59,858 nucleotides of DNA from Pseudomonadota bacterium. GTDB lineage: Bacteria > Pseudomonadota > Gammaproteobacteria > JAKAQQ01. The notes beneath the pieces were generated by a model that was given only the letters and a program-made list of their open reading frames with translations, was not told the origin of the DNA and ran no database searches. Each line of letters opens with the position of its first letter. Position 1 is the first letter of the stretch. The translations under genes were made by a program, and so were the position numbers. Below are positions 13,278 to 48,034 of the stretch, one piece after another. Where the stretch lies: positions 1 through 59,858 of the forward strand of contig JAJZBR010000002.1 in the NCBI GenBank assembly GCA_021798795.1, in the 5' to 3' direction.

Positions 13278-13280
13278 ATC

Positions 13281-14420: not shown

Positions 14421-14428
14421 GGAACCCC

Positions 14429-16296: not shown

Positions 16297-17345
16297 AAAA
16301 AATCCTGATTCTCGGGGTGAATGGCTTCATCGGCCATCACCTGAGCCAGCGGATCCTGAGCGGGACGGATTGGGAGGTTTTCGGAATGGACATGTTCTCG
16401 GAGCGGATCTCCGGCATGCTCGATCATCCCCGGTTCCATTTCTTCGAGGGCGACATCACGATCAACCGGGAGTGGGTGGAATACCACGTCAAGAAATGCG
16501 ATGTGGTCCTGCCGCTCGTGGCCATCGCCACTCCGGCCGCCTATGTACGTGAACCGCTCAAGGTCTTCAGCCTCGATTTCGAGGCGAACCTGCCGATCAT
16601 CCGCCAGTGCGTGCGCTACCGGAAGCGGATCATCTTTCCATCCACCTCCGAAGTCTACGGCATGTGCCCGGATGCCGCCTTCGATCCTTATGAGTCGACG
16701 CTTGTTCTGGGTCCCATCCCGAAGCAGCGCTGGATCTACAGCAGTTCGAAGCAGTTGCTCGACCGGGTGATCTGGGCGTACGGGATCGAGGAGCAGCTCG
16801 ATTTCACCCTCATTCGCCCCTTCAACTGGATCGGGCCGGGTCTCGACAGCATTCATGCGGCAAAAGAAGGCAGCTCCCGGGTCGTGACCCAGTTTCTCGG
16901 TCATATCGTGCGGGGCGAGGATATTCGTCTGGTCGATGGCGGCGCGCGGCGACGCGCCTATACCTATATCGACGACGGCATCGACGCACTCATGCGGATC
17001 ATTCACAATGCGAACGGAGCCGCGAGCCGGCGCATCTACAACATCGGCAATCCTGACAATCAGTACTCGGTTCGGGAGCTCGCGGAGCTCATGCTCAAAC
17101 TGGCCAAAGGCTATCCCGAATATGCACCCTCTGCCGCACGGGTGAAACTGGTCGAGGTTCGCGCCGCCGACTATTACGGAGAAGGTTATCAGGACATCGA
17201 CAATCGCGTACCCTCGATCGAGCATACCCGTCGTGAGCTCGGGTGGAAACCTGAAATCAGTCTCGAAGTCGCGCTTCAGCGAATCTTCGAGGCGTACCGC
17301 GGGGATGTGAACCAGGCCGGACAGCTCGTCAGTGAGGGTGACTGA
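16293..17345 (+). CDS. arnA: UDP-glucuronate oxidative decarboxylase (stand-alone ArnA C-terminal SDR domain)
   Basis: GTG start at 16293 (VKKILILGVNGFIGHHL Rossmann motif) and YSSSK catalytic motif. 350 aa. Confidence 0.88.
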   Translation: MKKILILGVNGFIGHHLSQRILSGTDWEVFGMDMFSERISGMLDHPRFHFFEGDITINREWVEYHVKKCDVVLPLVAIATPAAYVREPLKVFSLDFEANLPIIRQCVRYRKRIIFPSTSEVYGMCPDAAFDPYESTLVLGPIPKQRWIYSSSKQLLDRVIWAYGIEEQLDFTLIRPFNWIGPGLDSIHAAKEGSSRVVTQFLGHIVRGEDIRLVDGGARRRAYTYIDDGIDALMRIIHNANGAASRRIYNIGNPDNQYSVRELAELMLKLAKGYPEYAPSAARVKLVEVRAADYYGEGYQDIDNRVPSIEHTRRELGWKPEISLEVALQRIFEAYRGDVNQAGQLVSEGD

Positions 17346-36301: not shown

Positions 36302-36877
36302 ATGGAAGACACATGCTCCCCTCTGGACAGCTTTGGGAACCAGGCCGAATGTCGTGGTGCCCAAGAAGAACTCGTCTATCGCGCAAGGCAAGGCGATGTT
36401 TCGTCATTTGAGAAACTCTACCGACTCCATATCGGGCATGTCTATGCTTTGTGTCTGCGCCTGTCGGGCGAGGTCCATAGTGCTGAAGAATGCACCCAGG
36501 AAGCGTTTATCCACGCGTGGCAGTCCATGGGCCGCTTTCGCGGGGAAGCGGCGTTTGGTTCCTGGCTCTACCGGATCGCCGTGAACACCGTTTTGGCGCG
36601 TTACCGTGCAGAGCTGCGCCGAAGTCTTTCGTTTGCGCCGGCAGACACAGATGAAGCGGAACGGGTTCCAAGTAGCGATGCTCCACTTGAGCTGGCACTC
36701 GATCTGGACCGGACGATCCGCGAGCTTCCATTGGGTGCCCGGGTTGTATTCGTCCTGCATGATATCGAAGGCTATGGACATCCCGAGATCGCATCCATGA
36801 CGCACCTCGCGGTCGGGACCTCAAAAGCGCATCTGCATCGCGCGCGCCGGATTTTGCGGAGACGACTCGTCCCATGA
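36302..36877 (+). CDS. ECF-type sigma-70 family RNA polymerase sigma factor
   Basis: 191 aa. Region 2 (FEKLYRLHIGHVYALCLRL...QEAFIHAW...FGSWLYRIAVN) and a region 4 HTH (HPEIASMTHLAVGTSKAHLHRARRIL). Confidence 0.88.
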   Translation: MEDTCSPLDSFGNQAECRGAQEELVYRARQGDVSSFEKLYRLHIGHVYALCLRLSGEVHSAEECTQEAFIHAWQSMGRFRGEAAFGSWLYRIAVNTVLARYRAELRRSLSFAPADTDEAERVPSSDAPLELALDLDRTIRELPLGARVVFVLHDIEGYGHPEIASMTHLAVGTSKAHLHRARRILRRRLVP

Positions 36878-37398
36878 CTGACCTGTGGGAGGATGAGGGT
36901 CGAAAAGTTGCCGAAGCGGTGCGGGGTGCCCTCCGCACGCTTGCCCCGGAACGCGATCTATGGCCGGATATCTCCCGAAAGCTGGCACCCAGGCGATCCG
37001 GATGGGTTAGAGGCTCTCTTGCAATTGCCGCAGCGGTCGTTCTGATGGCAGTGGGAGTTTGGTGGGCCCCTGCGGGGAACTGGTTGCAGCGGGGGCCCCC
37101 TGCGGGCAGGAGTACCGCCGCCTTCGCGGAGAAAGTCGTGAACCGGAGAGACCCATCGATGGATCTTGTCTGGCGCGCAGCGCACGATCCATACTTGCCG
37201 TATGCCACGCGGTCAGTCCTGATCTCCAATCTGCTCATTCTTCATCATGCGCAACTTGCGCTCGCTCGGGCCATGACCCGCCATCCGGATACTCCTGGCC
37301 TGAGTGATCTCATGATCCATCTCGAGAGCGAGCGAGCAAGATTCATGACGAGCGTCGAAGAAGCCCAAATCCAATCCAACCCGAGGATCATGTTATGA
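36874..37398 (+). CDS. putative single-pass anti-sigma factor (non-zinc type)
   Basis: 174 aa. ATGA overlap with the sigma gene. Short cytoplasmic N-terminus, one TM (SLAIAAAVVLMAVGVWW) and a periplasmic tail. No Cys/His zinc motif. Called by position and topology only. Confidence 0.55.
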   Translation: MTDLWEDEGRKVAEAVRGALRTLAPERDLWPDISRKLAPRRSGWVRGSLAIAAAVVLMAVGVWWAPAGNWLQRGPPAGRSTAAFAEKVVNRRDPSMDLVWRAAHDPYLPYATRSVLISNLLILHHAQLALARAMTRHPDTPGLSDLMIHLESERARFMTSVEEAQIQSNPRIML

Positions 37399-38321
37399 AA
37401 ACGTCGATATCAACGCACTGGTTATCTCCGTCCACGCGTGTCTGGGCTCTGATCGGGGCATCCTGGTTCCTCATCCACATGCCCATGGCACACTCGCGTC
37501 CCATCAATCTGACCCATGCGGCAACTCCGATGGAGCGGGTTCTGATCAACAATACCGCCGGCTCGGTTACGGTTTATGGCTGGAAACGGGATGCCGTACA
37601 CGTCTCGGGCACGCTGGGTGCGGGGAGTGAACGTCTGGCCGTTCATGCCCGTAAGGGCTGGATCCGGATCCGTGTGGTGCTCCCGGAGTATGCGATGAAC
37701 GTCCGGGGCACGCATCTCGTCGTGGATGTGCCGATTGCAAGCCGCCTGGTTGTGAAGACGGTAAGCGCCGAGATCCAAGCAAGCGGGCTTGCGGGAGTTG
37801 CGCACCTGAAGAGTGTCAGCGGGAACGTGCTGCTTCAATCCCAGTCCCATGTGATCACGGTGAAATCTGTGAGTGGGACCGTTCGCATCGCCGGATCTGC
37901 CCCGCTTGCCAGGATCCGTGCGCAAACCGTGAGTGGTGGGGTCTCGTTCCAGGCGATCCGCGGCTGGGTGCGGGCGAGCAGTGTGAGTGGTTCGATCCAG
38001 GCGTCGGATCATTTGCGTATGACCCGTGCGTTACTCCATTCAACCTCTGGAAATGTCCGGTTCGATGGACCCGTGCTTAGCCAGGGTCGGTATGTCCTGA
38101 CCAGCGTGAGTGGGGATATCGACGTACTTTTGAGTCCACATCCGGACGCACGTTTCTACGTGTCCACTTTGAGCGGCAGCATCAGAAACAACTTTGGTCC
38201 GAGCGCGCGCCGACAAAGCGCGTACGGACCCGGCCGGATCCTTGATTTTGTGAGTGGCAAGCACGGCGCATCTGTGAAGATCCATACCCTGAGCGGCGAT
38301 ATTACTCTGCGTGTGCGCTAA
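37395..38321 (+). CDS. DUF4097-type beta-helical repeat protein (putative exported)
   Basis: 308 aa with a signal-like N-terminus. Contains about 9 repeats of (V/T/L)SG(N/T/G/S/D)(V/I)xxxx (VSGNVLLQS, VSGTVRIAG, VSGGVSFQA, VSGSIQAS, TSGNVRFDG, VSGDIDVLL, LSGSIRNNF, LSGDITLRV). ATGA overlap with the anti-sigma gene. Confidence 0.8.
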   Translation: MKTSISTHWLSPSTRVWALIGASWFLIHMPMAHSRPINLTHAATPMERVLINNTAGSVTVYGWKRDAVHVSGTLGAGSERLAVHARKGWIRIRVVLPEYAMNVRGTHLVVDVPIASRLVVKTVSAEIQASGLAGVAHLKSVSGNVLLQSQSHVITVKSVSGTVRIAGSAPLARIRAQTVSGGVSFQAIRGWVRASSVSGSIQASDHLRMTRALLHSTSGNVRFDGPVLSQGRYVLTSVSGDIDVLLSPHPDARFYVSTLSGSIRNNFGPSARRQSAYGPGRILDFVSGKHGASVKIHTLSGDITLRVR

Positions 38322-38755: not shown

Positions 38756-40864
38756 TCATTCGTGGCAACCGCCACTGCACGTACCATCATTTTGTTCACC
38801 AGATGGTGGATGGTCGAGTTCCCTACGCAGCAGGGATTCCAGATGGGAGCAATACTCCGCAACGTAATCGATTTGATTGACTGAATCTCGGAGCCAGGGA
38901 TTCATCAGCGTGTGTCGCAGAACGAAAATCGAGTTCGTGTCCAGCACACCGGGTTGGTTCGGTCCGATCAAACCCAAAGCGTTGAGGATCCGACTGCGCT
39001 CGGTGGGCGCGAGTGAATCCGGATAAAGCAGCGTTGAGGAGCTGAAAAACTGTTGTGCCTGAAGCGGACGGGCCCGATCGACGCGGAGATGGGCGTACAC
39101 ACGGTATGCAAACGCGTTCATATGCCGGGCACTTGTGTTTCCCGCAGGATTAAAAGCGACGCAGAGCAGATTGGAATCGGGTTCAAAAGGAATGTGGACA
39201 TGGATCAGTCCCGCCAGACGTTCGGCCATGTTTTTCATGAGGTCATAGAGATGTTCGGTTGCCTGGATGCTCAGTTGGGGCAACTGGCCCAGATGGGCAT
39301 GATCCAACGGTAACGTTCGATGCGTCACATATACGGCCGCTGCTGCAGCACCGGGTTTGGATCCTTCGAGAATGAAGCGGCCGAGTTCCCGGAATCGTTC
39401 CCGGTAGGTTTGGTTGATGCGGTGTTCGGGATCCGTGAAGATGTACGGTACATCCTCCGCGACTGAATTCGTCATCCGGTGATCGCGGCAAACAAAAGCA
39501 CCACCCGAACCGTAGGGCAGGTAACCGAGCTTGTGGGGATCCACTGTCACCGAATCGACGGCCGAGAGAGCGGCGACCGCTTCATAAACCCGCGCTGATG
39601 GAAAGTAGTGGAACGCCTGCCGCACCTGCTCGCGTGGGCGCAGGTCACCGGATTCTTCACGAAATAGGCTGGCCAGATAGCCGCCCCACGCGGCGTCCAC
39701 ATGGACAGCAAAGCCAAGTCCCTTTTGGTTCCAGGCATTTCGCAAACGCACGATTTCGTGTATGGGATCCAATGTTCCGTATTCCGTGGTTCCCAGGATG
39801 CCGACCACGGCGAGAACCGGCACGTGCTGACTGGCACAGGTGGACAGGGTTTGCTCGAGCGCGTCCGTATCCATGCGCATACCATCCGTCGGCATCAGGC
39901 GGAGATGATTGTGCCCGAGCCCCAGGAGCTTACAGGCTTTTCTCCAGGAGTAATGGGCTGTTTGCGCGATCAGGATCACAGGAGGCTTGAGTGCTCCCCG
40001 GGCGTGATGAAAATCAATACATCCGAGTGTCTCGATCCGGTTGGACTCAAGTGCTTCGAGAAATGCGCGCAGCTTTGCAGTGTCCCCCTGCATTTGATCG
40101 CGACACGTTTCCGCAAGGGCGATCGCGCTGTCAACCGAAAGGTTGAACAGCTCCCAATCGTCATAGGATTGCAGCAGACGCCCGTTGAATGTCACTTCGA
40201 GATGGCACACATTGACCGCGGTCTGAATCGCCAATGGCAGGTATTTCAAGGCACGCAGAATCCAGAGCGCTTCGTAGTTTGCAACAGTTCCTCCTGATGT
40301 CAGGTGGCCAAATGCGCAGTTCGGTGCCGCCTCATCGTGGGGAAAACCCAGCATGCGCGCCAGTTGCAGGCCGACGTCGATTTCGAGATCGATCGTGCCA
40401 GCTGATGCATCGCTTGAAACGTTGTTCGGGTTATAGGGGATCGTGATCATCTGGGCGAGCAGCCCGGGCAGCAATGGGTCAGAGACCATGTGCCCCATAT
40501 AGCGTGGACTGGATAGGGGCGTCGATCGCTTGAGACGTGCGGTCAGCATCTGTAGTTCATGGCGCAGTCGAGACACAAAATCGACATAGGCCGCATCCTG
40601 CTGTGCAAACGGCGGGATGGGAGGTGGGTCGTCGGGGTGGAAGTTGCGGCGCCAATAAATATGATCGCGTAGCAGCTCGACCAGAAGACGTTCGAAGAGA
40701 TCGTTGTTCTCGGCATAGGCACCCAAGAAACATGCGTTCAGAAATGAAGCATCTGGTTTCATAGCGGGTTCCATTGGTTTGACAGGCATGGGATCAGGCG
40801 GTGCCGCCGCTTCGGAAGGGCTTCGAAATGGACCGCGAACGGGGCCATTTCTTTCATCGCGCAT
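38756..40864 (-). CDS. large group II PLP-dependent decarboxylase-like enzyme (tyrosine/aromatic amino acid decarboxylase-like fold)
   Basis: Motifs HIYWRRNFHPDD, HLTSGGTVANYEALW, HVDAAWGG and VDPHKLGY (PLP lysine). The chosen start ATG 40864 lies 1 nt after the chorismate mutase stop (TGAGATG). Alternative starts are 40789, 40774 and 40762. The tail is Cys-rich (GTCSGGCHE). Confidence 0.8.
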   Translation of the reverse strand: MRDERNGPVRGPFRSPSEAAAPPDPMPVKPMEPAMKPDASFLNACFLGAYAENNDLFERLLVELLRDHIYWRRNFHPDDPPPIPPFAQQDAAYVDFVSRLRHELQMLTARLKRSTPLSSPRYMGHMVSDPLLPGLLAQMITIPYNPNNVSSDASAGTIDLEIDVGLQLARMLGFPHDEAAPNCAFGHLTSGGTVANYEALWILRALKYLPLAIQTAVNVCHLEVTFNGRLLQSYDDWELFNLSVDSAIALAETCRDQMQGDTAKLRAFLEALESNRIETLGCIDFHHARGALKPPVILIAQTAHYSWRKACKLLGLGHNHLRLMPTDGMRMDTDALEQTLSTCASQHVPVLAVVGILGTTEYGTLDPIHEIVRLRNAWNQKGLGFAVHVDAAWGGYLASLFREESGDLRPREQVRQAFHYFPSARVYEAVAALSAVDSVTVDPHKLGYLPYGSGGAFVCRDHRMTNSVAEDVPYIFTDPEHRINQTYRERFRELGRFILEGSKPGAAAAAVYVTHRTLPLDHAHLGQLPQLSIQATEHLYDLMKNMAERLAGLIHVHIPFEPDSNLLCVAFNPAGNTSARHMNAFAYRVYAHLRVDRARPLQAQQFFSSSTLLYPDSLAPTERSRILNALGLIGPNQPGVLDTNSIFVLRHTLMNPWLRDSVNQIDYVAEYCSHLESLLRRELDHPPSGEQNDGTCSGGCHE

Positions 40865-40865
40865 C

Positions 40866-41222
40866 TCAACCGGGCTCAGCATCTTCGATTCCTGGATGCA
40901 TGTCCGCCAGGTGTTCAACCTGCCCGGTGTCTACACTGCCCGCCATCTGCAGGGAGTTTTGGAGTACGGCTGAAACGATCCTGCTCGTGGCTGCAGGATT
41001 GAGACGGTAGCGTTCGGCCGAGGCTCTACAACGGGCAAAGATCTCGAGCTCACGTTCCGGACTGCGTGCGGGCAGGCCGATGAGTTTCTTGATGTCCTGT
41101 GCCTGCTCAACCAGCTCACTTCTGAGTTTCAATAATAAAACCAGTCGGTCGTCTAACCGGTCAATCCGGCGCCGTATTGCATTGAGACGGTCTCGTTGTG
41201 CGGGTTGCGAGGATGGGGTCAT
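40866..41222 (-). CDS. monofunctional chorismate mutase (AroQ class)
   Basis: 118 aa. LNAIRRRIDRLDDRLVLLLKLRSELVEQAQDIKK...PERELEI matches the AroQ helix 1/2 pattern (R..ID.lD..ll.Ll..R....... K). No signal peptide. Confidence 0.85.
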   Translation of the reverse strand: MTPSSQPAQRDRLNAIRRRIDRLDDRLVLLLKLRSELVEQAQDIKKLIGLPARSPERELEIFARCRASAERYRLNPAATSRIVSAVLQNSLQMAGSVDTGQVEHLADMHPGIEDAEPG

Positions 41223-41386
41223 CTGCGTACGCCGGATCGCTATGGGACAGTGGACGTCAGGGCGAAGGTTCGGGATGGGCCATGTCCGGTCGCGCCGGGC
41301 AATCCCGTTTGACGAGTGATTGTGGACCTGTGCTGATCTTTTGCATATGACCTAGATCAAGGCGTGACCGTCGTACGCCGGATAGC

Positions 41387-41896
41387 ATGAAAGATATGGT
41401 TCTGCGCGCGTTTCTGAAACGCTTGGGTGATGGCGTGCCCATGCTCCCGGCAAGAGTCCTGAACTGGGGAAGCCGGATGCCCGCTCCGCTCAGAAATGCA
41501 CTCGTGGAACAGATTTTCAACTATGCGCTGAGAAAACCATTGGCGGCTGGCACCTTCGACTTCCTGTCGGATCAAGCTGTTTCGGTCGTTGCGTCGGATG
41601 CTGATTATGGAATATCGCTGACCTGTCACAAACGCCTTTTGCGCTTGCTGCCGAGTGGGTGTGCGGATACCACGATCACAGCATCGACACTTGATCTCCT
41701 TCGGATGGCAGCTGGCCAGGTTGATGCAGATAGTCTGTTCTTTCGCCAGCAGCTTACGATCCGCGGGAATGTGGCGCTCGGTCTCGAAACCAAAAATGCA
41801 CTCGATGGAATCGACCGTGATGACTTGCCGTTTCCGGTCTGGTCCGTACTGAGAGGAGCCGAGACGCTGTTCAGACGCATGGAGCAGACGAGGTGA
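41387..41896 (+). CDS. ubiT: SCP2-domain ubiquinone biosynthesis accessory factor UbiT (YhbT)
   Basis: 169 aa. Aligns with E. coli UbiT, including the ...DADSLFFRQQLTIRGNVALGLETKNALD block (E. coli DPDTLFFQRRLVIEGDTELGLYVKNLMD). Confidence 0.88.
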   Translation: MKDMVLRAFLKRLGDGVPMLPARVLNWGSRMPAPLRNALVEQIFNYALRKPLAAGTFDFLSDQAVSVVASDADYGISLTCHKRLLRLLPSGCADTTITASTLDLLRMAAGQVDADSLFFRQQLTIRGNVALGLETKNALDGIDRDDLPFPVWSVLRGAETLFRRMEQTR

Positions 41897-42761
41897 TGAT
41901 GCCCGCCTGCTCCAGCCAATAACCGTCGCATTCCGGGGCGCCGATCAGATCAGCTACCTCTGGTATATTTCCCCTGTCCAATGCCACACGGGCCCGGTGT
42001 AGCAACGCGGGAGTGTTACTGGCATCCGGGCTGATTCTGAGAATGCCGACTCCAGCGTGGGCAGCCTCGCGCCAGTAGGGCAGAAGGTTTACAATCCGCG
42101 CGGATTGAGTTTGAAGCCCATTCAGGGTCAGAAAGGGCTGCCCTTCCTGGGTTTCAACCGCCATTCCGGAGGGATAGCGTCCGCAGATGAAATGGCAATG
42201 ATCCCGGGTGTAGCCATGTGCCCGTGCGGTAAAACAGCGGGCCGAGTAGGCAAGTGGCATCCGGCCCAGTGTAAAAAGCTCGGTTTCCAAGTGATCCGAA
42301 CCTAGCATCCGGATCATGGTGGCCAGTGCGGCACCCGATATCTCGAGAGGCGGAATCCAGCGGAAGAGCCCCAGATCCCGTAGTTGTGCCAGCGTCCGTT
42401 CATTGTAAACATTCAGTGAAGCGCCTGCGACAAACGGAAGACCGTTTTCCATGAGCATGTGAACAGCCGCTGCATCATTGGCTTCCACCAGAAACTCTCC
42501 ATTGCTGCAGACCCGCTCGATCTGCGAGAGTTCAGATTCTGCTTCGACAACGGTCAAGGTGGACAGGACAATCTCTTTGCCGCGATCCTTCAGCATGCGT
42601 CCGATCTCAAGCCACTGCATCCAGCCCAGACTGCGCCGTTTTGAGCATACGGTCTCGCCGAGATAGACAATGTCAACAGGTGCTTCAGCGATATCATTAT
42701 AGAAGGCAAGAAGCTGATCGTTGTTCCAGTGATAACCAACCGGGCCAAGCGCAAGACGCAT
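41871..42761 (-). CDS. ubiV: U32-family O2-independent ubiquinone hydroxylase subunit UbiV (YhbV)
   Basis: MRLALGPVGYHWN...VYLGETVCSKRR...LPLAYSARCFTAR aligns with E. coli UbiV (MKYSLGPVLWYWP...IYLGEAVCSKRR...LPLAYSARCFTAR). The start could be 42782. Confidence 0.9.
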   Translation of the reverse strand: MRLALGPVGYHWNNDQLLAFYNDIAEAPVDIVYLGETVCSKRRSLGWMQWLEIGRMLKDRGKEIVLSTLTVVEAESELSQIERVCSNGEFLVEANDAAAVHMLMENGLPFVAGASLNVYNERTLAQLRDLGLFRWIPPLEISGAALATMIRMLGSDHLETELFTLGRMPLAYSARCFTARAHGYTRDHCHFICGRYPSGMAVETQEGQPFLTLNGLQTQSARIVNLLPYWREAAHAGVGILRISPDASNTPALLHRARVALDRGNIPEVADLIGAPECDGYWLEQAGIITSSAPCV

Positions 42762-42772
42762 AGGGGATTCGC

Positions 42773-43768
42773 TCAACGCCATACCCGGGCGTAAGCGCCC
42801 AGTGTCGTCTGTTGCCCTTCCGAAAGTTTGCCCAGGGCTTGTACCCACGCGCTCTCGGGCACGAAGTGCACCGGATCCCTTTGGCAGGCATCCAGTGCAG
42901 CACGCCAGGTTCGGACCACTTGGGCAATATATGCTGGACTGCGCTGTCGGCCTTCGAGCTTGATCGCCTCTATGCCGAGCGCAGCCAGTTTGGGCAAGAT
43001 ATCCAATGTGTTGAGGCTGGTTGGTTCTTCAAAGACATGGCGGATCCGGTTCTCGACACGAAATCGTCCCTTGCAGATTGTCGGGTAACCCGCAGCTTCC
43101 TCCGGTGCGAAACGGTCGATCAGAATGCCCGCAACACGCGTTTCCAGTCCCCCTGGGGTCGGTATCCAAGCCACGCTTTCGGCGGGAGAACAGGCACCAT
43201 AGTTGTTGGGGGAATGCCCACAGGCATAGGATGACAGCAGACAACGCCCCTCGGCCATGATGCAGAGACTGCCAAATCCGAACACTTCAAGCGGGACGAC
43301 GTCGTGTTCAGCAAGCCGCGCGATCTGGGTCAATGAGAGCACGCGGGGAAGCACTGCACGGCGAATGTTGAACAGATCCCGGTAAAGCCGGAGCGCGCGC
43401 CAATTCGTGGCGGAGGCCTGTACGGAAAGGTGCAGGCGGAGATCCGGGTAGGTCCGAGATGCGTAACCGAGGACCGCAAGATCGGCTGCTATGAGTGCAG
43501 AGACATTCGCTTCGGCGGCCTGGTCTACGGCGGCCTTCCAGTCAGCCCATTTGCCGGCACGCGCATAGGTATTGATGGCAACGTATATCTGAGCCTGAAA
43601 CCGTTTGGCTGTCTCGACGACTTCGTGGAGCTGCGCCGGTGCAAAGTTGAGCCCGGGAAAGTTACGCGCGTTGGTTGCATCGCGCAAGCCGAGATAGACG
43701 GCATCTGCGCCGGCTTCCAAAGCCGCTTTCAGGGAGCCGGGGCTGCCGGCAGGTGCAACAAGATCCAT
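42773..43768 (-). CDS. ubiU: U32-family O2-independent ubiquinone hydroxylase subunit UbiU (YhbU)
   Basis: 331 aa, near full-length collinear with E. coli UbiU (GADAVY.GL.D.TNAR.F.GLNF, FGSLCIM.EGRC.LSSY, GYPT.CKGR, EEPTSLNTL, IEGRQRSPAY, TTLGAY). Confidence 0.93.
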   Translation of the reverse strand: MDLVAPAGSPGSLKAALEAGADAVYLGLRDATNARNFPGLNFAPAQLHEVVETAKRFQAQIYVAINTYARAGKWADWKAAVDQAAEANVSALIAADLAVLGYASRTYPDLRLHLSVQASATNWRALRLYRDLFNIRRAVLPRVLSLTQIARLAEHDVVPLEVFGFGSLCIMAEGRCLLSSYACGHSPNNYGACSPAESVAWIPTPGGLETRVAGILIDRFAPEEAAGYPTICKGRFRVENRIRHVFEEPTSLNTLDILPKLAALGIEAIKLEGRQRSPAYIAQVVRTWRAALDACQRDPVHFVPESAWVQALGKLSEGQQTTLGAYARVWR

Positions 43769-43794: not shown

Positions 43795-43836
43795 ATTGTA
43801 AAAGCCGAAGTTGGGAGGATGCTTGATACGGATCAA
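43795..43836 (-). promoter_or_regulatory. class II FNR/CRP-family dependent promoter for ubiU-ubiV
   Basis: A perfect palindrome TTGAT-ACGG-ATCAA lies at 43823..43836. On the minus strand a TACAAT -10 hexamer (43800..43795) sits 32 bp from the box centre. This is the spacing expected for a -41.5 site, and predicts a TSS about 20 nt upstream of the ubiU ATG (43768). Confidence 0.7.
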
Positions 43837-43916: not shown

Positions 43917-44573
43917 CTATCCTGAAAATCCCCACCGGGGTGTGAGATCGTGTTCAACGTCCAGATGGTCGAGGGTGCGAGCGACGACGAAATCGACGAG
44001 GCGGTCAACTGACAGGGGGGGATGATAAAAGCCCGGGCAGGCCGGAAGCATCACGACTCCGGATTGCGACAAATGGAGCATGTGTGTGAGGTGAATACAG
44101 CTCAAAGGGGTTTCTCTGGGTACCAGAACGAGCTTGCGGCGCTCTTTGATCATGACATCAGCGGCCCGTTCGAGCAAGGTATGGCTCGCACCGGTCGCGA
44201 TGGCTGCAAGCATGCCCATGCTGCATGGACAGATGGCCATTGCATCTACGCGGGCCGATCCACTGGCCATCGGCGCCGTCCACTGCCGTTCACCGAAAAC
44301 ACGCAGATGCCCGCGTGCATCGGTGATCGGGGCGAAGTGTGTGTTCAGTATTCGTTCGATTGCAAGCGGTTCATCGGGCAGGGTCAGTTCCGTTTCCATT
44401 GCCATGACCGTTCGTGCCGAATCGGTCACGACCACGTGAACTTCACGGTTGGCGATGAGTAATCGTTCAATGAGTCTCAGGCCGTAAATGGTTCCTGATG
44501 CGCCACTCAGTCCTACCACAACGGGTGACCGATCACCTGATCGTACATGCGATTCCAGGCGTCTGGTACTCAC
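43917..44573 (-). CDS. ubiX: flavin prenyltransferase UbiX
   Basis: The GTG start overlaps the ubiD stop (GTGA). VVVGLSGASGTIYGLRLIE, PCSMG and typical UbiX length (218 aa). The longer ORF to 44648 lies inside ubiD. Confidence 0.9.
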   Translation of the reverse strand: MSTRRLESHVRSGDRSPVVVGLSGASGTIYGLRLIERLLIANREVHVVVTDSARTVMAMETELTLPDEPLAIERILNTHFAPITDARGHLRVFGERQWTAPMASGSARVDAMAICPCSMGMLAAIATGASHTLLERAADVMIKERRKLVLVPRETPLSCIHLTHMLHLSQSGVVMLPACPGFYHPPLSVDRLVDFVVARTLDHLDVEHDLTPRWGFSG

Positions 44574-46036
44574 CCGAGTTCGAGATCTGACCAGAGACGA
44601 TCGATGCGTGCGACGATCTCGGGGTCTTTGATGATCGGACGTCCCCATGTGCGGCTCGTTTCGCCCGGACCCTTGTTCGTGGCATCCACTCCGAGCTTGG
44701 ATCCGAGCCCGGTAGTTGCCGATGTGAAATCCAGATTGTCGACGGGAGTCGCATCCATGCAGAAAATGTCACGCTTCGGGTCCACGCGGGTACTTAATAC
44801 CCAGAGAACATCCTTCCAGTTGCGAACGTCGATATCGTCGTCCGTGATGATCACGTACTTGGTATAAAGAAACTGGCGCAGAAAGCTCCAGATGCCAAAC
44901 ATGACCCGCCTGGCCTGGCCTGGATACTCCTTACGGATGCTCACACAGGCCATCCGGTAGCTGCAGGCTTCGGGAGGAAGATAGAAGTCGATGATTTCCG
45001 GAAACTGACGTTTGAGGATCGGGATAAAAAGCTCGTTCAGAGCGGCCGCTAGGACGGATGGCTCATCCGGAGGGCGCCCGGTATGGGTGGCGTGAAAGAT
45101 GGGGTCATCGCGATGGGTGAGCCGGGTAACGGTCATGACCGGATAGGGGGCCACCTCGTCATAGTAGCCGGTATGGTCACCGAACGGACCTTCGACAGCC
45201 GTATCATCCGGGTGGATGAAGCCTTCGAGGACAATCTCGGCCTGCGCCGGAACACTGAGATCGTGGGACAGACAGGGGGCAATCTCCGTACGGGATCCTC
45301 TCAGCAGGCCAGCGAAAGCATACTCCGAGAAATGGTCGGGAATCGGCATCGCTGCGGCGATCAGCATCGCGGGATCTGCACCAATTGCTACGGCGACCGG
45401 GAAGGGTTTGTCCGGATGGGCCCCGCGCCATGCCCTGAAATCCAGTGCGCCCCCGCGGTGGGGCAGCCAACGCATGATCAGGCGGTTGTGGTCGATGACC
45501 TGCTGGCGGTAGACCCCAACGTTGAGTCGCTCGCGAACTGGTCCCCGCGTTACTGTCAAACCCCAGGTGATCAAGGGTCCAGCATCGCCTGGCCAACTGG
45601 TGACCAGTGGCAGGCGGCTTAAATCCACGTCGTTTCCTGTTAGTTGATGCGTTTGACAAGCCGGACGATGGATCCGGCGCAGAGGCATTTTGAGCGCACC
45701 CCGCATCAGTTCCAGGTGGCCGAGTATATCCGCCAGACCCTGAGGTGGTTCCGGCTCGCGATAGAGGGCCAGTCGCTCGCCGAACTCGCGCAGATCCCCG
45801 ATTGTGCGGCGTCCGAGTGCCCTTGCCACCCGGTCGGGTGTCCCGAGGAGATTCGTCAGGACCGGCAGGGTCTGCCCCACGGGCCGTGTAAAGAGCAAGG
45901 CAGGCCCTCCTCGCTTCAAGACCCGGTCAGAGATCTCAGTAATTTCGAACTGAGGATCGATGGGGACGTCGATCTTTTTTAGTTCCCCGCACTGATTGAG
46001 CTCATCAACAAAGGATCGCAAGCTGTTCAGGGACAT
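44570..46036 (-). CDS. ubiD: 4-hydroxy-3-polyprenylbenzoate decarboxylase UbiD
   Basis: 488 aa. N-terminal LRSFVDELNQCGELKKIDVPIDP.FEITEI.DRVLK.GGPALLF and the prFMN-binding core typical of UbiD. Confidence 0.92.
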   Translation of the reverse strand: MSLNSLRSFVDELNQCGELKKIDVPIDPQFEITEISDRVLKRGGPALLFTRPVGQTLPVLTNLLGTPDRVARALGRRTIGDLREFGERLALYREPEPPQGLADILGHLELMRGALKMPLRRIHRPACQTHQLTGNDVDLSRLPLVTSWPGDAGPLITWGLTVTRGPVRERLNVGVYRQQVIDHNRLIMRWLPHRGGALDFRAWRGAHPDKPFPVAVAIGADPAMLIAAAMPIPDHFSEYAFAGLLRGSRTEIAPCLSHDLSVPAQAEIVLEGFIHPDDTAVEGPFGDHTGYYDEVAPYPVMTVTRLTHRDDPIFHATHTGRPPDEPSVLAAALNELFIPILKRQFPEIIDFYLPPEACSYRMACVSIRKEYPGQARRVMFGIWSFLRQFLYTKYVIITDDDIDVRNWKDVLWVLSTRVDPKRDIFCMDATPVDNLDFTSATTGLGSKLGVDATNKGPGETSRTWGRPIIKDPEIVARIDRLWSDLELG

Positions 46037-46047
46037 CTGGACGAGCT

Positions 46048-47970
46048 TCAGCTTGCGATGCGTGTTGCAACGGCGAAACGGGAGGAGTCAATGCCAGGCA
46101 TCAGGGGTTTGTCCCACTCGATGCTGATGCGATCACCGGCGTGTCTCAGCCGATCCATCCACTGTCCAATATGTACGTGATGACTAATCGGCGCATCCTT
46201 GAACTCAAGGACCAGTGTGAGAGTCCGAAATCTCCGCAGCAGACGGTTCATCAGGTTCAGGGCAGACTTCAGGTCTGCGGACTGGCAGGATCTTCCAACG
46301 ACCATGCGAAGCCGCACCGGTCTGGATAGACGCTCAAATTGAATCCTGAAGATTCCATTAGCGGTCGGTTCCTGGAGCTTGCGGAGAAGTTGGACGACGT
46401 GTCTTTCGATCGACAGTCGTTCGCGGAATGTTGGGTGGCAGACGTAACGCCTGGCATATTCCCGGATGGAGAAGCCAGCGGCCCAATCTTGGCAGGCATC
46501 TGGCCAGAGCGATGGGCGCACATGACCGAGGCTCCATACGAATCGCGCGCCGCAGACCACTCCGCTCCTCAGGATTCCACGGATAGCCAGCCGCCAGAGG
46601 GTGCGCCCGGCATGACGCTCGTTCGCGTGATGCCGGAATGAATGATGGTTTTTGCGATAAAAACGGAACTTGTTGCGGATACGCATGGCCATCGCACGAT
46701 AACTCGTCAGACGTTCATAGAGGGCCGCGTAGCCGACGGTGAGTTCATCATAGGTCATGCCGAGGGGCACAATGTTTGTCTGCCCGCCGGTATTGTCCCC
46801 GGGTTGCACATGGGCCCGCAGTCGATTCTCCCGTCTCAGCCGTTCGTAAAGCGGTGTCCGTGGTACGGCCGTGAGAAGACCCAGCATGGCAACCTGGATG
46901 CCCGATGCTTCAATAAAATGGTACTGGCGCTCAAACGTTTTGACCGAATCATGATCAAAGCCCACGATGAAACCGCTGAACACGTCGATTCCGTTCTGGT
47001 AAAAGGCGCGGACGGCATCCAGCAGGCTACCCCTCAGGTTCTGTTTTTTCCCTGTCTCGGCCAGGCTTTCCGTTTCGGGTGTTTCGATGCCGAGGAAGAC
47101 CCAATGAAATCCGGCAGCGCGGACCCTGGAGAGAAGCTCACGGTCGGTTGCGAGATTGACCGATACCTCGGTACCAAACGAGAACGGGTAATTGTGGCAT
47201 CGCTGGTATTCTGTTAGAAACTCGAGCAAGGCCAGGGCACGTGGCCGATGTCCAATCAGGTTATCGTCAACGAAGAACACGTTGTGGACGCCATATCGGC
47301 GCAGGAGGTCGAGTTCGTCATGAATCTGTTCAAGGGTTTTGGTCCGTGGTTTCCGGCCAAAAAGAACGGGAATGTCGCAGAACTCACATTGATAAGGACA
47401 TCCCCGTGAGAACTGCAGGCTGGCTGTCGTGTAGGAAGAAAACTTGATCAGGTCGTAACGCGGCGTCGGCGAATGCCGGAGATCGACCGGGACTGCCTGG
47501 TGATAGCGTCTGGCTGCTATACCCTGTTCGAAATCGCGGCAGAACGCTGGCCAGATCAGTTCGGCCTCACCAATTATCAAGGTATCCACAAGCCCCTCAT
47601 AGGATGAGGGCGACAAGGAGACATAGCTCCCGCCAGCCACGACATGGTAGCCTTTCTCGCGATAGTACCCGAGGAGTTCCCTTTGGCGTGGAAACTGGAC
47701 AGCCATCCCGCCGATGCCGACAATATCCGCATCCGGATCCAGCGGCAGGGGCTCAATGTTTTCGTCACAGATTGCGATGTCCCAGTGGGCTGGAGTCAGC
47801 GCGGCAAGGGTCGCGAGTCCGAGGGGTGGGTTGATCGCCCGTTTGTCCGAGAGCACTTCGCGGAGCGCCCAGCGGAAGCTCCAGAAGCTTTCCGGAGAAC
47901 GGGGATTGACCAGAACCAGGCGTATCGGTCGTTTGGGAAGAAGTTTGGGATCGATCGGGTGCACGAACAT
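46048..47970 (-). CDS. B12-binding-domain radical SAM protein with DUF4070-like C-terminal region (function unknown)
   Basis: 640 aa. N-terminal cobalamin-binding-like segment (DIVGIGGMAVQFPRQRELLGYYREKGYHVVAGG) and radical SAM motif FSRGCPYQCEFCD (CX3CX2C). About 230 aa of C-terminal extension. The stop lies 11 nt before the ubiD start. Confidence 0.85.
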   Translation of the reverse strand: MFVHPIDPKLLPKRPIRLVLVNPRSPESFWSFRWALREVLSDKRAINPPLGLATLAALTPAHWDIAICDENIEPLPLDPDADIVGIGGMAVQFPRQRELLGYYREKGYHVVAGGSYVSLSPSSYEGLVDTLIIGEAELIWPAFCRDFEQGIAARRYHQAVPVDLRHSPTPRYDLIKFSSYTTASLQFSRGCPYQCEFCDIPVLFGRKPRTKTLEQIHDELDLLRRYGVHNVFFVDDNLIGHRPRALALLEFLTEYQRCHNYPFSFGTEVSVNLATDRELLSRVRAAGFHWVFLGIETPETESLAETGKKQNLRGSLLDAVRAFYQNGIDVFSGFIVGFDHDSVKTFERQYHFIEASGIQVAMLGLLTAVPRTPLYERLRRENRLRAHVQPGDNTGGQTNIVPLGMTYDELTVGYAALYERLTSYRAMAMRIRNKFRFYRKNHHSFRHHANERHAGRTLWRLAIRGILRSGVVCGARFVWSLGHVRPSLWPDACQDWAAGFSIREYARRYVCHPTFRERLSIERHVVQLLRKLQEPTANGIFRIQFERLSRPVRLRMVVGRSCQSADLKSALNLMNRLLRRFRTLTLVLEFKDAPISHHVHIGQWMDRLRHAGDRISIEWDKPLMPGIDSSRFAVATRIAS

Positions 47971-47992: not shown

Positions 47993-48034
47993 ATTGTGAG
48001 AGATCACACGCATCCACTGCTTGACACAAATCAA
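47993..48034 (-). promoter_or_regulatory. FNR-like box and -10 element upstream of the radical SAM-ubiD-ubiX unit
   Basis: TTGAC-ACAA-ATCAA at 48021..48034 matches 9/10 of the consensus. CACAAT on the minus strand (47998..47993) is again 32 bp from the box centre, which is 57.5 bp upstream of the ATG at 47970. Confidence 0.5.

What the first reader, a model, noticed from the sequence alone, without database searches (positions are those of the whole stretch)
38756..41222. Chorismate mutase translationally coupled to a 700-aa PLP decarboxylase-like enzyme, divergent from ubiT: a possible prephenate supply and by-product module for U32 hydroxylases
A stand-alone AroQ chorismate mutase (no linked prephenate dehydratase or dehydrogenase) is followed 1 nt later (TGAGATG) by an unusually large group II PLP enzyme. 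The pair is transcribed divergently from ubiT, next to ubiU-ubiV. U32-family hydroxylases (RlhA, TrhP) are known to depend on prephenate. As I recall the literature, prephenate has been reported as the oxygen donor for the UbiU/UbiV anaerobic hydroxylations. A dedicated chorismate mutase beside ubiTUV would supply that co-substrate. The coupled PLP enzyme could process the aromatic by-product (a phenylpyruvate/phenylalanine-type compound) or make a head-group precursor from tyrosine. I know of no description of such a module.
Basis: partly seen in the sequence, partly recalled or inferred. Interest (0 to 1): 0.7.

Follow-up and report, generated by a model that had tools for sequence, protein, structure and literature searches.

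The report
Chorismate mutase joins anaerobic ubiquinone genes
A small prephenate-making enzyme and a tyrosine-decarboxylase-like enzyme sit inside the gene set that lets bacteria make ubiquinone without oxygen and appear to be switched on with it, which fits the 2024 discovery that prephenate donates the oxygen atoms and points to an unstudied helper enzyme.

Summary
On the minus strand, a 118-aa AroQ chorismate mutase (CM) gene abuts or overlaps a roughly 700-aa TyrDC-type PLP decarboxylase gene. The pair is divergent from ubiT, beside ubiU-ubiV, ubiX, ubiD and a B12-radical-SAM gene.

The CM link to ubiTUV is well supported:
- The same ubiU-ubiV/ubiT/CM-PLP core recurs with different flanks.
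- In Lysobacterales-type loci, UbiT itself carries an N-terminal CM domain. All top 120 of 1196 hits to such a fusion have both domains.
- Some loci encode a prephenate-dehydrogenase-like protein fused to a CM domain just upstream of ubiU.
- I found no paper that mentions any of this.

The PLP family is not an orthologue of characterised TyrDC, but it keeps every catalytic residue. It is often in one operon with ubiD-ubiU-ubiV: 16 of 39 metagenome loci with enough flank. FNR-type boxes lie upstream of it about five times more often than background.

In the window, three promoters share one design: an FNR box, 22 nt, then YACAAT. They precede rSAM-ubiD-ubiX, ubiU-ubiV and CM-PLP.

Best reading: an FNR-controlled island for O2-independent ubiquinone synthesis with its own prephenate supply. 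The decarboxylase's role is unresolved. A Tyr/Phe sink is my tentative guess; disposal of the hydroxylation by-product is unlikely. This is a new variant of a known system.

The parts
38756..40882 (-). TyrDC-type group II PLP decarboxylase. It is 708 aa from the ATG at 40882, which has an AGGA Shine-Dalgarno-like sequence, or 702 aa from the ATG at 40864 in the TGAGATG junction.
   Evidence: PF00282 plus PF21391, and TIGR03811 at 347 bits against a cut-off of 905. Best solved relatives are 5HSI and 7CWX (tyrosine decarboxylases) and 6EBN (E 1e-82 to 1e-88). Fold search puts the same three on top. Catalytic residues are kept.
40866..41222 (-). Stand-alone AroQ (CM_2) chorismate mutase, 118 aa.
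   Evidence: PF01817 at 54 bits. It aligns to 1ECM, and R11, R28, K39, R51, E52 and S84 (E. coli numbering) are kept; D48 is S and Q88 is A. Orthologues occupy the same position in L001, L030 and L039.
41319..41360 (-). FNR-type class II promoter candidate for the CM-PLP operon: TTGATCTAGGTCAT, 22 nt, then CACAAT. It lies in the 164-bp ubiT/CM intergenic region.
   Evidence: The box and the CACAAT element are conserved in L001 and L030, and the box in L039.
41387..41896 (+). ubiT, the SCP2 accessory factor. It is divergent from CM, and its 3' end overlaps ubiV by 26 nt.
   Evidence: NF047962 at 100 bits against a cut-off of 46.9; PF02036.
41871..42848 (-). ubiV. The gene caller's start gives 296 aa, beginning MRLALG.
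   Evidence: NF047965 at 344 bits against 275. The CXnCX12CX3C cysteines are at 39, 176, 189 and 193 of the 296-aa form.
42773..43768 (-). ubiU.
   Evidence: NF047963 at 512 bits against 440. Cysteines at 169, 176, 193 and 232 are the same positions as the E. coli cluster ligands.
43795..43836 (-). FNR-type class II promoter candidate for ubiU-ubiV: TTGATCCGTATCAA (perfect consensus), 22 nt, then TACAAT.
43917..44648 (-). ubiX (flavin prenyltransferase).
   Evidence: TIGR00421 at 191 bits against 109.
44570..46036 (-). ubiD.
   Evidence: UbiD_N, UbiD and UbiD_C domains; PRK10922 at 736 bits (cut-off 788) and TIGR00148 at 509 bits against 245.
46048..47970 (-). B12-binding-type radical SAM protein with DUF4070. 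It is the first gene of the ubiD-ubiX unit and its role is unknown.
   Evidence: PF04055 plus PF13282. Conserved in L001 and L030.
47993..48034 (-). FNR-type class II promoter candidate for rSAM-ubiD-ubiX: TTGATTTGTGTCAA, 22 nt, then CACAAT.
   Evidence: The same composite lies upstream of the rSAM gene in L001 and L030.

Best explanation
The window carries an island for O2-independent ubiquinone synthesis, apparently controlled by an FNR/Anr-type regulator. It has three co-designed transcription units (rSAM-ubiD-ubiX, ubiU-ubiV, CM-PLP) plus ubiT.

The small AroQ chorismate mutase converts chorismate to prephenate close to the UbiT-UbiU-UbiV machinery. This gives the two Fe-S hydroxylases their O-donor independently of the feedback-controlled PheA/TyrA mutases. 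That step is inferred from gene linkage, gene fusions and conserved catalytic residues, together with the published demonstration that prephenate is the O donor.

The co-transcribed TyrDC-like enzyme is a catalytically intact PLP-dependent decarboxylase of an aromatic-type L-amino acid. It is a recurrent, apparently anaerobically induced companion of ubiD/ubiUV. That linkage and the regulatory signal are shown here.

Its job is not shown. My tentative commitment is that it decarboxylates tyrosine and/or phenylalanine, the end products of the prephenate branch. It would act as a sink that keeps Tyr/Phe from shutting down the shikimate pathway when four chorismate-derived molecules are needed per ubiquinone (one 4-hydroxybenzoate and three prephenate).
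For: Genes and families:
- UbiU and UbiV keep the 4Fe-4S cysteines.

Published background:
- Prephenate is the O donor, and the CM domain of PheA alone restores anaerobic ubiquinone in an E. coli pheA tyrA double mutant (PMC10990095).
- UbiD/UbiX are essential only for the anaerobic route (bioRxiv 10.64898/2026.03.05.709815).
- E. coli ubiUV and one ubiT promoter are Fnr-activated (PMC10470549).

CM linkage:
- The ubiU-ubiV / ubiT / CM-PLP core is kept in L001 and L030 (75-77% PLP identity) and in L039 (64%). In L039 the flanks differ: nadB-nadA on one side and fabB-fabA on the other.
- CM_2 plus SCP2 in one UbiT protein: L027 and L028 by Pfam. All 10 Lysobacterales-type loci with a complete ubiT gene show it, as does an independent gene call in L125. 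All top 120 of 1196 database hits carry both domains.
- PDH_N plus CM_2 in one ORF lies directly upstream of ubiU in L051 and L058.
- CM-only ORFs lie near the PLP gene in L073 and in L014, L023 and L031.
- R11, R28, K39, R51 and E52 are invariant in all these CMs.

PLP linkage:
- 10 of 34 genome loci and 24 of 80 metagenome loci hold a ubi gene. Of 39 metagenome loci with at least 5 kb downstream, 16 have ubiD/U/V within 5 kb.
- Start and stop codons overlap in PLP-PALP-ubiD.
- 13 of 33 PLP clusters at 75% identity (28 of them with adequate flanks) have ubi-linked members.
- At least six different gene orders occur.

Regulation:
- The composite 'FNR box, 22 nt, YACAAT' occurs exactly three times in the window, at the three promoters. 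It occurred 0 times in 100 shuffles, and it recurs at the orthologous promoters of L001 and L030.
- An FNR box with at most 1 mismatch lies within 510 nt upstream of the PLP gene in 35 of 108 loci, against about 6.5 expected.

Enzyme:
- K445, D390, H304, T360, D442, S502, the catalytic-loop Tyr474 and Y451 correspond to LbTDC K392, D328, H241, T298, D389, S440, Y420 and Y398. All but Y451 are invariant in the family; Y451 is nearly invariant.
- The top structural matches are TyrDC and an aromatic amino acid decarboxylase, with a gap of 18 orders of magnitude in E-value to the next tier.
- A divergent prephenate-dehydrogenase-like gene often follows the PLP gene, which points to the tyrosine branch.
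Against: - No experiment bears on either protein.
- The stand-alone CM lacks D48 and Q88 of the E. coli enzyme. Its clade is tiny: 5 representatives at E <= 1e-10.
- E. coli and P. aeruginosa run the pathway without a dedicated CM or this decarboxylase.
- The PLP gene is far from any ubi gene in about 60% of loci with enough flank.
- In L042 and L043 it is co-operonic with RIC (ScdA) and a DGC-domain gene next to NnrS and an Rrf2 regulator. In Lysobacterales it follows nnrS, with hemN and fnr nearby. Membership of a general anaerobic/NO regulon would explain the linkage without any chemistry in common with ubiquinone.
- A prephenate-dehydrogenase-like partner would consume prephenate, which is odd for a supply module.
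- The sink idea is a rationalisation. The by-product flux itself is negligible (my estimate).
- The FNR motif alone is not enriched window-wide (17 matches against 17.8 expected). The composite pattern was defined after seeing the three sites.
- Loci are phylogenetically clustered, mostly in Lysobacterales.
Confidence: 0.55

Rival explanations
1. The PLP decarboxylase is simply one member of a broad anaerobic / nitric-oxide-stress regulon (FNR, Dnr or NsrR type). Its product serves some other anaerobic need, such as pH or redox homeostasis, NO defence or amine production. Its position near ubi genes would then reflect regulon islands rather than shared chemistry. The CM could still serve UbiUV.
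For: - FNR boxes lie upstream of the PLP gene even in loci with no ubi neighbour, for example L004, L008, L011, L012, L015, L017, L020, L024 and L029.
- A RIC(ScdA)-DGC-PLP operon sits beside an FNR-family gene, an Rrf2 regulator and NnrS in L042 and L043.
- nnrS, hemN and fnr lie upstream in many Lysobacterales loci.
- NrdDG lies nearby in L127, and NirK lies near the cluster in L125.
- About 60% of loci with flank lack ubi genes within 5 kb.
Against: - The PLP gene shares overlapping start and stop codons with the PALP gene and ubiD, so they form one operon.
- In the window clade and in L039 it is paired with a chorismate mutase, not with stress genes.
- Prephenate-dehydrogenase-like and CM domains recur between it and ubiU.
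- It is linked to ubi genes in at least six different arrangements.
Confidence: 0.28
2. CM, the PDH-like protein where present, and the decarboxylase form an anaerobic route from chorismate through prephenate and tyrosine to a ring precursor for the quinone. The precursor could be 4-hydroxybenzoate or an alternative head group. Another version is that the decarboxylase acts on an arogenate-type compound to make a modified O donor.
For: - The gene order PLP-(PALP)-(PDH-like +/- CM)-ubiD-ubiU-ubiV recurs.
- The pocket is TyrDC-like, with the family-specific residues W393 (invariant), H651 (invariant) and T652.
- The source of 4-hydroxybenzoate is unknown in some UQ-producing bacteria that have neither UbiC nor XanB2 (bioRxiv 10.1101/2025.02.17.638619).
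Against: - No known O2-free chemistry leads from tyramine to 4-hydroxybenzoate with the enzymes at hand.
- The window has no PDH-like or PALP gene.
- Many loci have PLP directly next to ubiD with neither partner.
- Relatives of Lysobacterales are known to have XanB2 (from my own knowledge, not checked here).
Confidence: 0.08
3. One reading: the PLP enzyme removes the aromatic by-product of the UbiUV reaction, phenylpyruvate via phenylalanine.
For: Phenylpyruvate is the proposed by-product (PMC10990095). The enzyme is of the aromatic amino acid decarboxylase type.
Against: - The by-product has not been demonstrated experimentally; it is only proposed.
- The enzyme class does not accept keto acids.
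- Three phenylpyruvate per ubiquinone is under 1% of the cell's phenylalanine demand (my own estimate from textbook values). Ordinary transamination into protein synthesis would absorb it.
- E. coli needs no such enzyme.
Confidence: 0.05
4. The gene encodes a classical biogenic-amine or acid-resistance tyrosine decarboxylase, unrelated to quinones.
For: It is homologous over its full length to Lactobacillus and Enterococcus TyrDC.
Against: - It scores 347 bits against the equivalog cut-off of 905 and is about 27-28% identical in structural alignment.
- No amino acid/amine antiporter gene lies next to it in the annotated loci I inspected.
- It is linked to an FNR-type promoter and to ubi genes.
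Confidence: 0.04

Closest known systems
O2-independent ubiquinone pathway UbiT/UbiU/UbiV of E. coli and P. aeruginosa, with prephenate as O donor (Pelosi 2019, PMC6747719; PNAS 2024, PMC10990095; Arias-Cartin 2023, PMC10470549)
   Same: - UbiT, UbiU and UbiV score above the NCBIfam equivalog cut-offs.
- The Fe-S cysteines are identical.
- ubiD and ubiX are present.
- FNR-type boxes lie at class II distance from the -10 elements, as at E. coli ubiUVp.

   Different: - Here a chorismate mutase gene is part of the locus. In relatives it is fused to UbiT or to a PDH-like protein.
- A TyrDC-like decarboxylase is co-transcribed with the CM gene.
- In E. coli, prephenate comes from the housekeeping PheA/TyrA enzymes and no decarboxylase is involved.
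- A B12-type radical SAM gene heads the ubiD-ubiX unit.
Tyrosine decarboxylases of Lactobacillus brevis (5HSI/5HSJ) and Enterococcus faecalis (7CWX), and the Psilocybe non-canonical aromatic amino acid decarboxylase (6EBN)
   Same: - Same three-domain architecture, including the TyrDC C-terminal domain.
- All PLP-binding and catalytic residues are kept, including the catalytic-loop Tyr.
- Best sequence and fold matches.

   Different: - Only about 27-28% identical in structural alignment.
- Far below the TIGR03811 cut-off.
- Pocket changes: Y331 to W, A585 to H (both invariant in the family), S586 to T.
- No antiporter partner.
- Found in Gammaproteobacteria, under an FNR-type promoter, next to ubi genes.
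- Substrate unknown.
AroQ chorismate mutases: the E. coli PheA CM domain (1ECM), small stand-alone AroQ proteins, and the CM-PDH T-protein TyrA
   Same: CM_2 fold. The cationic active-site residues R11', R28 and K39, together with R51, E52 and S84, are kept.
   Different: - D48 and Q88 are replaced in the stand-alone clade.
- The protein is not linked to a prephenate dehydratase or dehydrogenase in the window.
- Its partners are UbiT (adjacent or fused) and a decarboxylase.
- In L051 and L058 the domain order is PDH then CM, the reverse of TyrA.
The UbiT-UbiU gene fusion in Zymomonas mobilis, used as evidence for a shared function (Pelosi 2019)
   Same: The same kind of Rosetta-stone argument: a fusion that ties a protein to UbiT.
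   Different: The fusion partner here is a chorismate mutase domain. It is far more widespread, and no paper I could search mentions it.

Membership tests
AroQ (CM_2) chorismate mutase | Match to Pfam PF01817 above the gathering score | tested here: met
   54.3 bits against a cut-off of 27, covering residues 16-92.
AroQ (CM_2) chorismate mutase | Active-site residues of EcCM: R11', R28, K39, D48, E52, S84, Q88 | tested here: inconclusive
   R17, R34, K45, E58 and S90 correspond to R11, R28, K39, E52 and S84. D48 is S54 and Q88 is A94, with a Gln two residues earlier. In the UbiT-fused CMs, D48 and Q88 are kept but S84 is Ala.
AroQ (CM_2) chorismate mutase | Catalyses chorismate to prephenate, rather than acting for example as an isochorismate-pyruvate lyase | not testable with these tools
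   The CM models of NCBIfam score best, but all are below their cut-offs. The isochorismate lyase model scores lower: 24.9 bits against 46 for the best CM model.
Group II PLP decarboxylase, TyrDC subfamily | PF00282 plus the TyrDC C-terminal domain PF21391 | tested here: met
   76 bits and 29.9 bits, both above their cut-offs.
Group II PLP decarboxylase, TyrDC subfamily | Schiff-base Lys, Asp to the pyridine N, stacking His, and the catalytic-loop Tyr | tested here: met
   K445, D390, H304 and Y474 align with LbTDC K392, D328, H241 and Y420 and are invariant in 14 family members.
Group II PLP decarboxylase, TyrDC subfamily | Equivalog-level similarity to characterised tyrosine decarboxylase (TIGR03811 cut-off) | tested here: not met
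   347 bits against 905. It is a homologue, not an orthologue.
Group II PLP decarboxylase, TyrDC subfamily | Same fold as solved TyrDC | tested here: met
   The model has pTM 0.74. The top hits are 5HSJ and 7CWY at E about 1e-34, with TM-score 0.72-0.73 normalised by target length. The N-terminal 156 residues are modelled with low confidence.
Group II PLP decarboxylase, TyrDC subfamily | Tyrosine (or another aromatic amino acid) as substrate | not testable with these tools
   The pocket residues H125, M126, S128, Y451 and M654 are kept. W393, H651 and T652 differ.
UbiT/UbiU/UbiV O2-independent ubiquinone pathway | All three proteins present and above the NCBIfam equivalog cut-offs | tested here: met
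   UbiT 100.1 against 46.9; UbiU 512.5 against 440; UbiV 344 against 275.
UbiT/UbiU/UbiV O2-independent ubiquinone pathway | Four Cys ligands of the 4Fe-4S cluster in UbiU (C169, C176, C193, C232) and in UbiV (CXnCX12CX3C) | tested here: met
   UbiU has Cys at 169, 176, 193 and 232. UbiV has Cys at 39, 176, 189 and 193.
UbiT/UbiU/UbiV O2-independent ubiquinone pathway | The CM and PLP genes are functional parts of the pathway | not testable with these tools
   Only linkage, fusion and shared promoter design support this.
FNR/Anr-activated class II promoter | A TTGAT-N4-ATCAA box centred about 41.5 nt upstream of the transcription start | tested here: inconclusive
   There are three boxes with 0, 1 and 2 mismatches. 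Each is followed after 22 nt by YACAAT, which places the box centre about 41-42 nt from a start 7 nt past the -10 element. The arrangement is conserved in L001 and L030. No transcription start or regulator data exist, and no FNR-family gene was found in the window.

The most novel reading that the evidence does not exclude
The TyrDC-like decarboxylase, together with its recurrent partners (a Cds1-like PALP enzyme and a divergent prephenate-dehydrogenase-like protein, sometimes fused to CM), is a so far unknown catalytic component of O2-independent ubiquinone synthesis in these lineages. It might convert a prephenate- or arogenate-derived amino acid into the actual co-substrate, or it might supply the ring precursor without oxygen. 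In parallel, the CM tethered to UbiT would channel prephenate directly into the UbiU-UbiV active site.
Probability: 0.15. Interest if true: 0.85.

Novelty: new variant of a known kind. Interest (0 to 1): 0.62.

Why it matters
Prephenate as a biological oxygen donor was shown only in 2024, by genetics and isotope labelling in E. coli. The chemistry remains open: the oxidant, the fate of the by-product, and how the co-substrate reaches a lipid-bound intermediate.

The loci studied here give independent evolutionary evidence for that discovery. A chorismate mutase has been recruited to ubiT at least three ways:
- as a neighbouring gene;
- as an N-terminal domain of UbiT, in more than a thousand database proteins;
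- as a domain fused to a prephenate-dehydrogenase-like protein upstream of ubiU.

This suggests local supply or channelling of prephenate. It also offers natural fusion proteins for biochemistry and structural work on the UbiTUV complex.

The work also flags an uncharacterised family of TyrDC-like enzymes that carries FNR-type promoter signals. Their operon partnership with ubiD/ubiUV is not predicted by the current pathway model. If the link is functional, the O2-independent pathway has lineage-specific extra steps. If it is not, the family is still a widespread, uncharacterised, probably anaerobically induced decarboxylase in soil and wastewater Gammaproteobacteria.

Tried and rejected
- **Orthology to characterised TyrDC or other decarboxylases: rejected.** All NCBIfam equivalogs score far below their cut-offs.
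- **Acid-resistance reading: rejected.** No antiporter gene lies in the annotated loci I inspected.
- **By-product disposal: judged unlikely.** The enzyme class does not fit and the flux is too small.
- **A plain FNR-box count in the window: not informative.** It gave 17 matches against 17.8 expected. Only the position of the sites, the composite design and their conservation carry weight.
- **Word-index homologue search with the CM: no yield.** It found only the query itself. The exhaustive search showed a tiny clade and then generic AroQ proteins. I therefore cannot claim that the stand-alone CM derives from the UbiT-fused CM; independent recruitment is more likely.
- **My first crude ORF clustering of neighbourhoods: superseded.** It was noisy in these high-GC loci, with spurious antisense ORFs. 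I replaced it with tblastn, HMM searches and independent gene calls.
- **Search for PALP, PDH-like, FNR-family, NnrS, HemN, RIC or DGC homologues in the window: none found**.
- **Terminator and sigma-70 scans around the operon: at chance level**.
- **One look-up (P0152): not on record**.
- **The 'Rhodothermales' locus (L003/L126): uninformative.** The contig is short and I could not verify its taxonomic assignment.
- **Structure prediction: added only fold confirmation.** The N-terminal domain is poorly modelled as a monomer.

Full report
**What is there**

The finding sits in a run of genes, all on the minus strand except ubiT. In order they are:
- a PLP enzyme (38756-40864 or 40882);
- a 118-aa chorismate mutase, CM (40866-41222);
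- ubiT on the plus strand (41387-41896);
- ubiV (41871-42848);
- ubiU (42773-43768);
- ubiX (43917-44648);
- ubiD (44570-46036);
- a B12-type radical SAM/DUF4070 gene (46048-47970).

Pfam and NCBIfam confirm every assignment. UbiT, UbiU and UbiV score above their equivalog cut-offs, and the CM scores above the Pfam CM_2 cut-off. The PLP protein carries the group II decarboxylase domain plus the TyrDC C-terminal domain.

UbiU has cysteines at exactly the four E. coli cluster-ligand positions, and UbiV has the CXnCX12CX3C motif.

The TGAGATG junction exists. However, an ATG 18 nt further upstream has a better Shine-Dalgarno sequence, and an independent gene caller chose it. With that start, the two genes overlap by 17 nt. 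Either way they form one operon.

The rest of the window is ordinary chromosome: RND efflux, arn genes, putA, mla-like genes, peptidases, and ileS-lspA-ribF-murJ. G+C content is 60%.

**The literature claim**

[quoted passage not shown] It also shows that the CM domain of PheA alone restores anaerobic ubiquinone in a pheA tyrA mutant. Phenylpyruvate is the proposed by-product, but this has not been demonstrated.

That paper does not mention a linked mutase, a gene fusion or a decarboxylase. No paper in the searchable library holds both 'UbiT' or 'YhbT' and 'chorismate mutase'. Pelosi 2019 reports only a UbiT-UbiU fusion in Zymomonas. The 2024 ISME J quinone survey says nothing on this point.

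**The chorismate mutase belongs with ubiT**

Four lines of evidence support this.

1. Conserved adjacency with changed flanks. L001 and L030 (PLP 75-77% identical) have the whole arrangement. L039 (64% identical) keeps only the ubiU-ubiV / ubiT / CM-PLP core, flanked by nadB-nadA and fabB-fabA.

2. Fusion to UbiT.
   - In Lysobacterales-type loci, UbiT carries an N-terminal CM_2 domain, with both Pfam domains above their cut-offs in L027 and L028.
   - All ten such loci with a complete ubiT gene show the fusion, and so does an independent gene call in L125.
   - A database search with one fusion returned 1196 hits, and all of the top 120 carry both domains. They come from Lysobacter, Arenimonas, Rhodanobacter, Thermomonas and others. 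JGI names some of them 'YhbT/chorismate mutase'.

3. Fusion to a prephenate-dehydrogenase-like protein. In L051 and L058, a single ORF directly upstream of ubiU combines a prephenate-dehydrogenase-like domain with a CM_2 domain.

4. CM-only ORFs near the PLP gene in L073 and in the Tahibacter-type loci.

The core residues R11, R28, K39, R51 and E52 are invariant in all of these CMs. The stand-alone clade has S or N at the D48 position and lacks Q88. The fused clade has A at the S84 position.

The stand-alone clade is tiny, with 5 representatives at E <= 1e-10. It is no closer to the fused CMs than to generic AroQ proteins. Recruitment therefore looks independent, which strengthens the functional argument.

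**The PLP enzyme**

Its best solved relatives are the tyrosine decarboxylases of L. brevis and E. faecalis and the Psilocybe aromatic amino acid decarboxylase, aligned over essentially the full length. A model with pTM 0.74 finds the same three at E about 1e-34, against 1e-16 for the next tier.

I mapped the residues studied in LbTDC (PMC4904194) through the alignment onto the 14-member family alignment.

Kept, and invariant in the family except where noted:
- the Schiff-base lysine K445;
- D390, H304, T360, D442 and S502;
- the essential catalytic-loop tyrosine Y474;
- Y451, H125, M126, S128 and M654 (Y451 and S128 are nearly invariant, at 90% or more).

Family-specific differences near the substrate:
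- W393 in place of Y331 (invariant);
- H651 in place of A585 (invariant);
- T652 in place of S586.

It is therefore a working decarboxylase with an aromatic-type pocket. It is not an orthologue of TyrDC: it scores 347 bits against a cut-off of 905. Its size is normal for this architecture.

**Linkage of the PLP family to ubi genes**

The family is large: 2893 hits at E <= 1e-10, mostly about 50% identical, from Lysobacterales and unclassified Gammaproteobacteria.

| Data set | Family loci | Loci with a ubi gene |
|---|---|---|
| Genome loci (36 fetched) | 34 | 10 |
| Metagenome loci | 80 | 24 |

Of 39 metagenome loci with at least 5 kb downstream of the PLP gene, 16 have ubiD, ubiU or ubiV within 5 kb. 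By my own arithmetic, chance would give well under 1%.

The commonest order is hemN, fnr, nnrS, (sirB), PLP, a Cds1-like PALP enzyme, (a PDH-like gene), ubiD, ubiU, ubiV, (fabB, fabA, nadA), CM-ubiT, DGC. PLP, PALP and ubiD have overlapping start and stop codons.

Other orders also occur:
- ubiUVT / fnr / (rrf2, nnrS) / RIC-DGC-PLP;
- PLP, P-type ATPase ... CM-ubiT ... ubiV, ubiU;
- ubiU, ubiV, ubiT, ubiD, fabA, fabB, PLP.

At 75% identity there are 33 PLP clusters, of which 28 have at least 5 kb of flank on one side. Thirteen clusters contain a ubi-linked member.

The link is therefore recurrent and not explained by one inherited arrangement. It is also not universal.

**Regulation**

In the window, three sites share one design: an FNR-type box, 22 nt, then YACAAT.

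| Coordinates (minus strand) | Box | -10-like element | Unit downstream |
|---|---|---|---|
| 48034-47993 | TTGATTTGTGTCAA | CACAAT | rSAM-ubiD-ubiX |
| 43836-43795 | TTGATCCGTATCAA | TACAAT | ubiU-ubiV |
| 41360-41319 | TTGATCTAGGTCAT | CACAAT | CM-PLP |

The geometry fits class II FNR promoters, like E. coli ubiUVp.

The composite pattern matches only these three places in 60 kb, and matched none in 100 shuffles. I defined the pattern after seeing the sites, so the independent support matters: it recurs at the orthologous rSAM and CM promoters of L001 and L030, where the intergenic DNA has otherwise diverged. The box is also present in L039 at a class II distance from a TATAAT element.

Across all loci, a box with at most one mismatch lies within 510 nt upstream of the PLP gene in 35 of 108 cases, against about 6.5 expected. 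This includes loci with no ubi neighbour. The decarboxylase family therefore looks anaerobically induced in general.

**How it most likely works**

Shown here or in published work:
- gene content, catalytic residues, linkage, fusions and promoter design (this work);
- the prephenate requirement of UbiUV;
- the anaerobic specificity of UbiD/UbiX.

Inferred:
- The CM makes prephenate at or near the UbiT-UbiU-UbiV complex. This makes supply independent of PheA/TyrA, which are feedback-controlled by Phe and Tyr (established knowledge).
- The decarboxylase is co-expressed with it.

Its role is the weak point. By-product disposal is unconvincing for three reasons: the enzyme class needs an amino acid, the flux is negligible, and E. 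coli does without it.

My tentative commitment is a Tyr/Phe sink. It would prevent end-product shut-down of the shikimate pathway when one ubiquinone costs four chorismate-derived molecules. This would also accommodate the PDH-like partner, which leads into the tyrosine branch.

The main rival is that the enzyme belongs to a wider anaerobic/NO regulon and has nothing chemically to do with quinones. The RIC-DGC-PLP operons, the nnrS/hemN/nrdDG/nirK neighbours and the ubi-free loci support that view.

A bolder reading is not excluded: the enzyme acts on an arogenate-type compound, or feeds a ring precursor.

**Verdict**

This is a new variant of a known system. Its value lies in two things. The CM-UbiT relationship gives independent evidence for the 2024 discovery, suggests channelling, and offers ready-made fusion proteins for study. 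And the locus exposes an uncharacterised enzyme family tied to the anaerobic ubiquinone genes.

Noticed in passing
window 46048-47970 (-), promoter 47993-48034: A B12-binding-type radical SAM protein with DUF4070 is the first gene of the ubiD-ubiX unit and has its own FNR-type promoter. The gene and the promoter design are kept in L001 and L030. Its role in anaerobic ubiquinone synthesis, if any, is unknown.
   Followed up: partly
L027 18717-19523 (-); L028 16661-17539 (+); L125 10001-10795; proteins P0121-P0240: UbiT proteins with an N-terminal chorismate mutase domain are widespread in Lysobacterales-type genomes: all top 120 of 1196 hits carry both domains. No paper I could search mentions them.
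   Followed up: yes
L051 5324-6388 (+); L058 13487-14539 (+): A single ORF combines a prephenate-dehydrogenase-like domain with a C-terminal CM_2 domain, the reverse of the TyrA domain order. It lies directly upstream of ubiU, in loci that also have a CM-UbiT fusion.
   Followed up: partly
L027 11856-12986 (+) and many other loci (for example L050, L053, L055, L125): A PALP-fold enzyme sits between the decarboxylase gene and ubiD, with overlapping stop and start codons. Its best match is the Cds1 L-cysteine desulfhydrase model: 456 bits against a cut-off of 600.
   Followed up: partly
L042 4590-7758; L043 9038-12166: In two more distant lineages the decarboxylase is the last gene of an operon with RIC (ScdA/hemerythrin, repair of iron centres) and a DGC-domain protein. 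The operon lies beside an FNR-family regulator, an Rrf2 regulator, NnrS and ubiUVT.
   Followed up: partly
window 41871-41896: ubiT (+) and ubiV (-) converge, and their 3' ends overlap by 26 nt. The same overlap appears in the gene calls of L037 and L039.
   Followed up: no
window 41383-41398: The FNR box in the ubiT/CM spacer is only about 33 nt from the annotated ubiT start. Read towards ubiT, it would place a TAGCAT -10-like element at 41383-41388 and a transcription start near the second ATG at 41396. This raises the possibility of a bidirectional site and a leaderless or shorter ubiT (my own reading).
   Followed up: no
window 32869-34422 (-) and 34540-36084 (-): These are two tandem S10 serine-carboxypeptidase-like paralogues (517 and 514 aa). 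Their central part appears identical at the DNA level, since identical antisense ORFs occur at 33409-33771 and 35080-35442. This suggests a recent duplication or gene conversion.
   Followed up: no
window 36302-38321 (+): An ECF sigma factor, a putative anti-sigma protein and a DUF4097 protein form a small unit that converges on the 3' end of the decarboxylase gene.
   Followed up: no
window 11206-17345 (+): An aminoarabinose lipid A modification cluster: an ArnT-like transferase, a DegT-type aminotransferase, a GT2 glycosyltransferase, a formyltransferase and an epimerase/dehydratase.
   Followed up: no
L125 5754-8632 (-); L127 1645-4674: Denitrification and anaerobiosis genes lie next to the cluster in related loci: a NirK-type copper nitrite reductase with SCO1, and the anaerobic ribonucleotide reductase NrdD/NrdG.
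   Followed up: no
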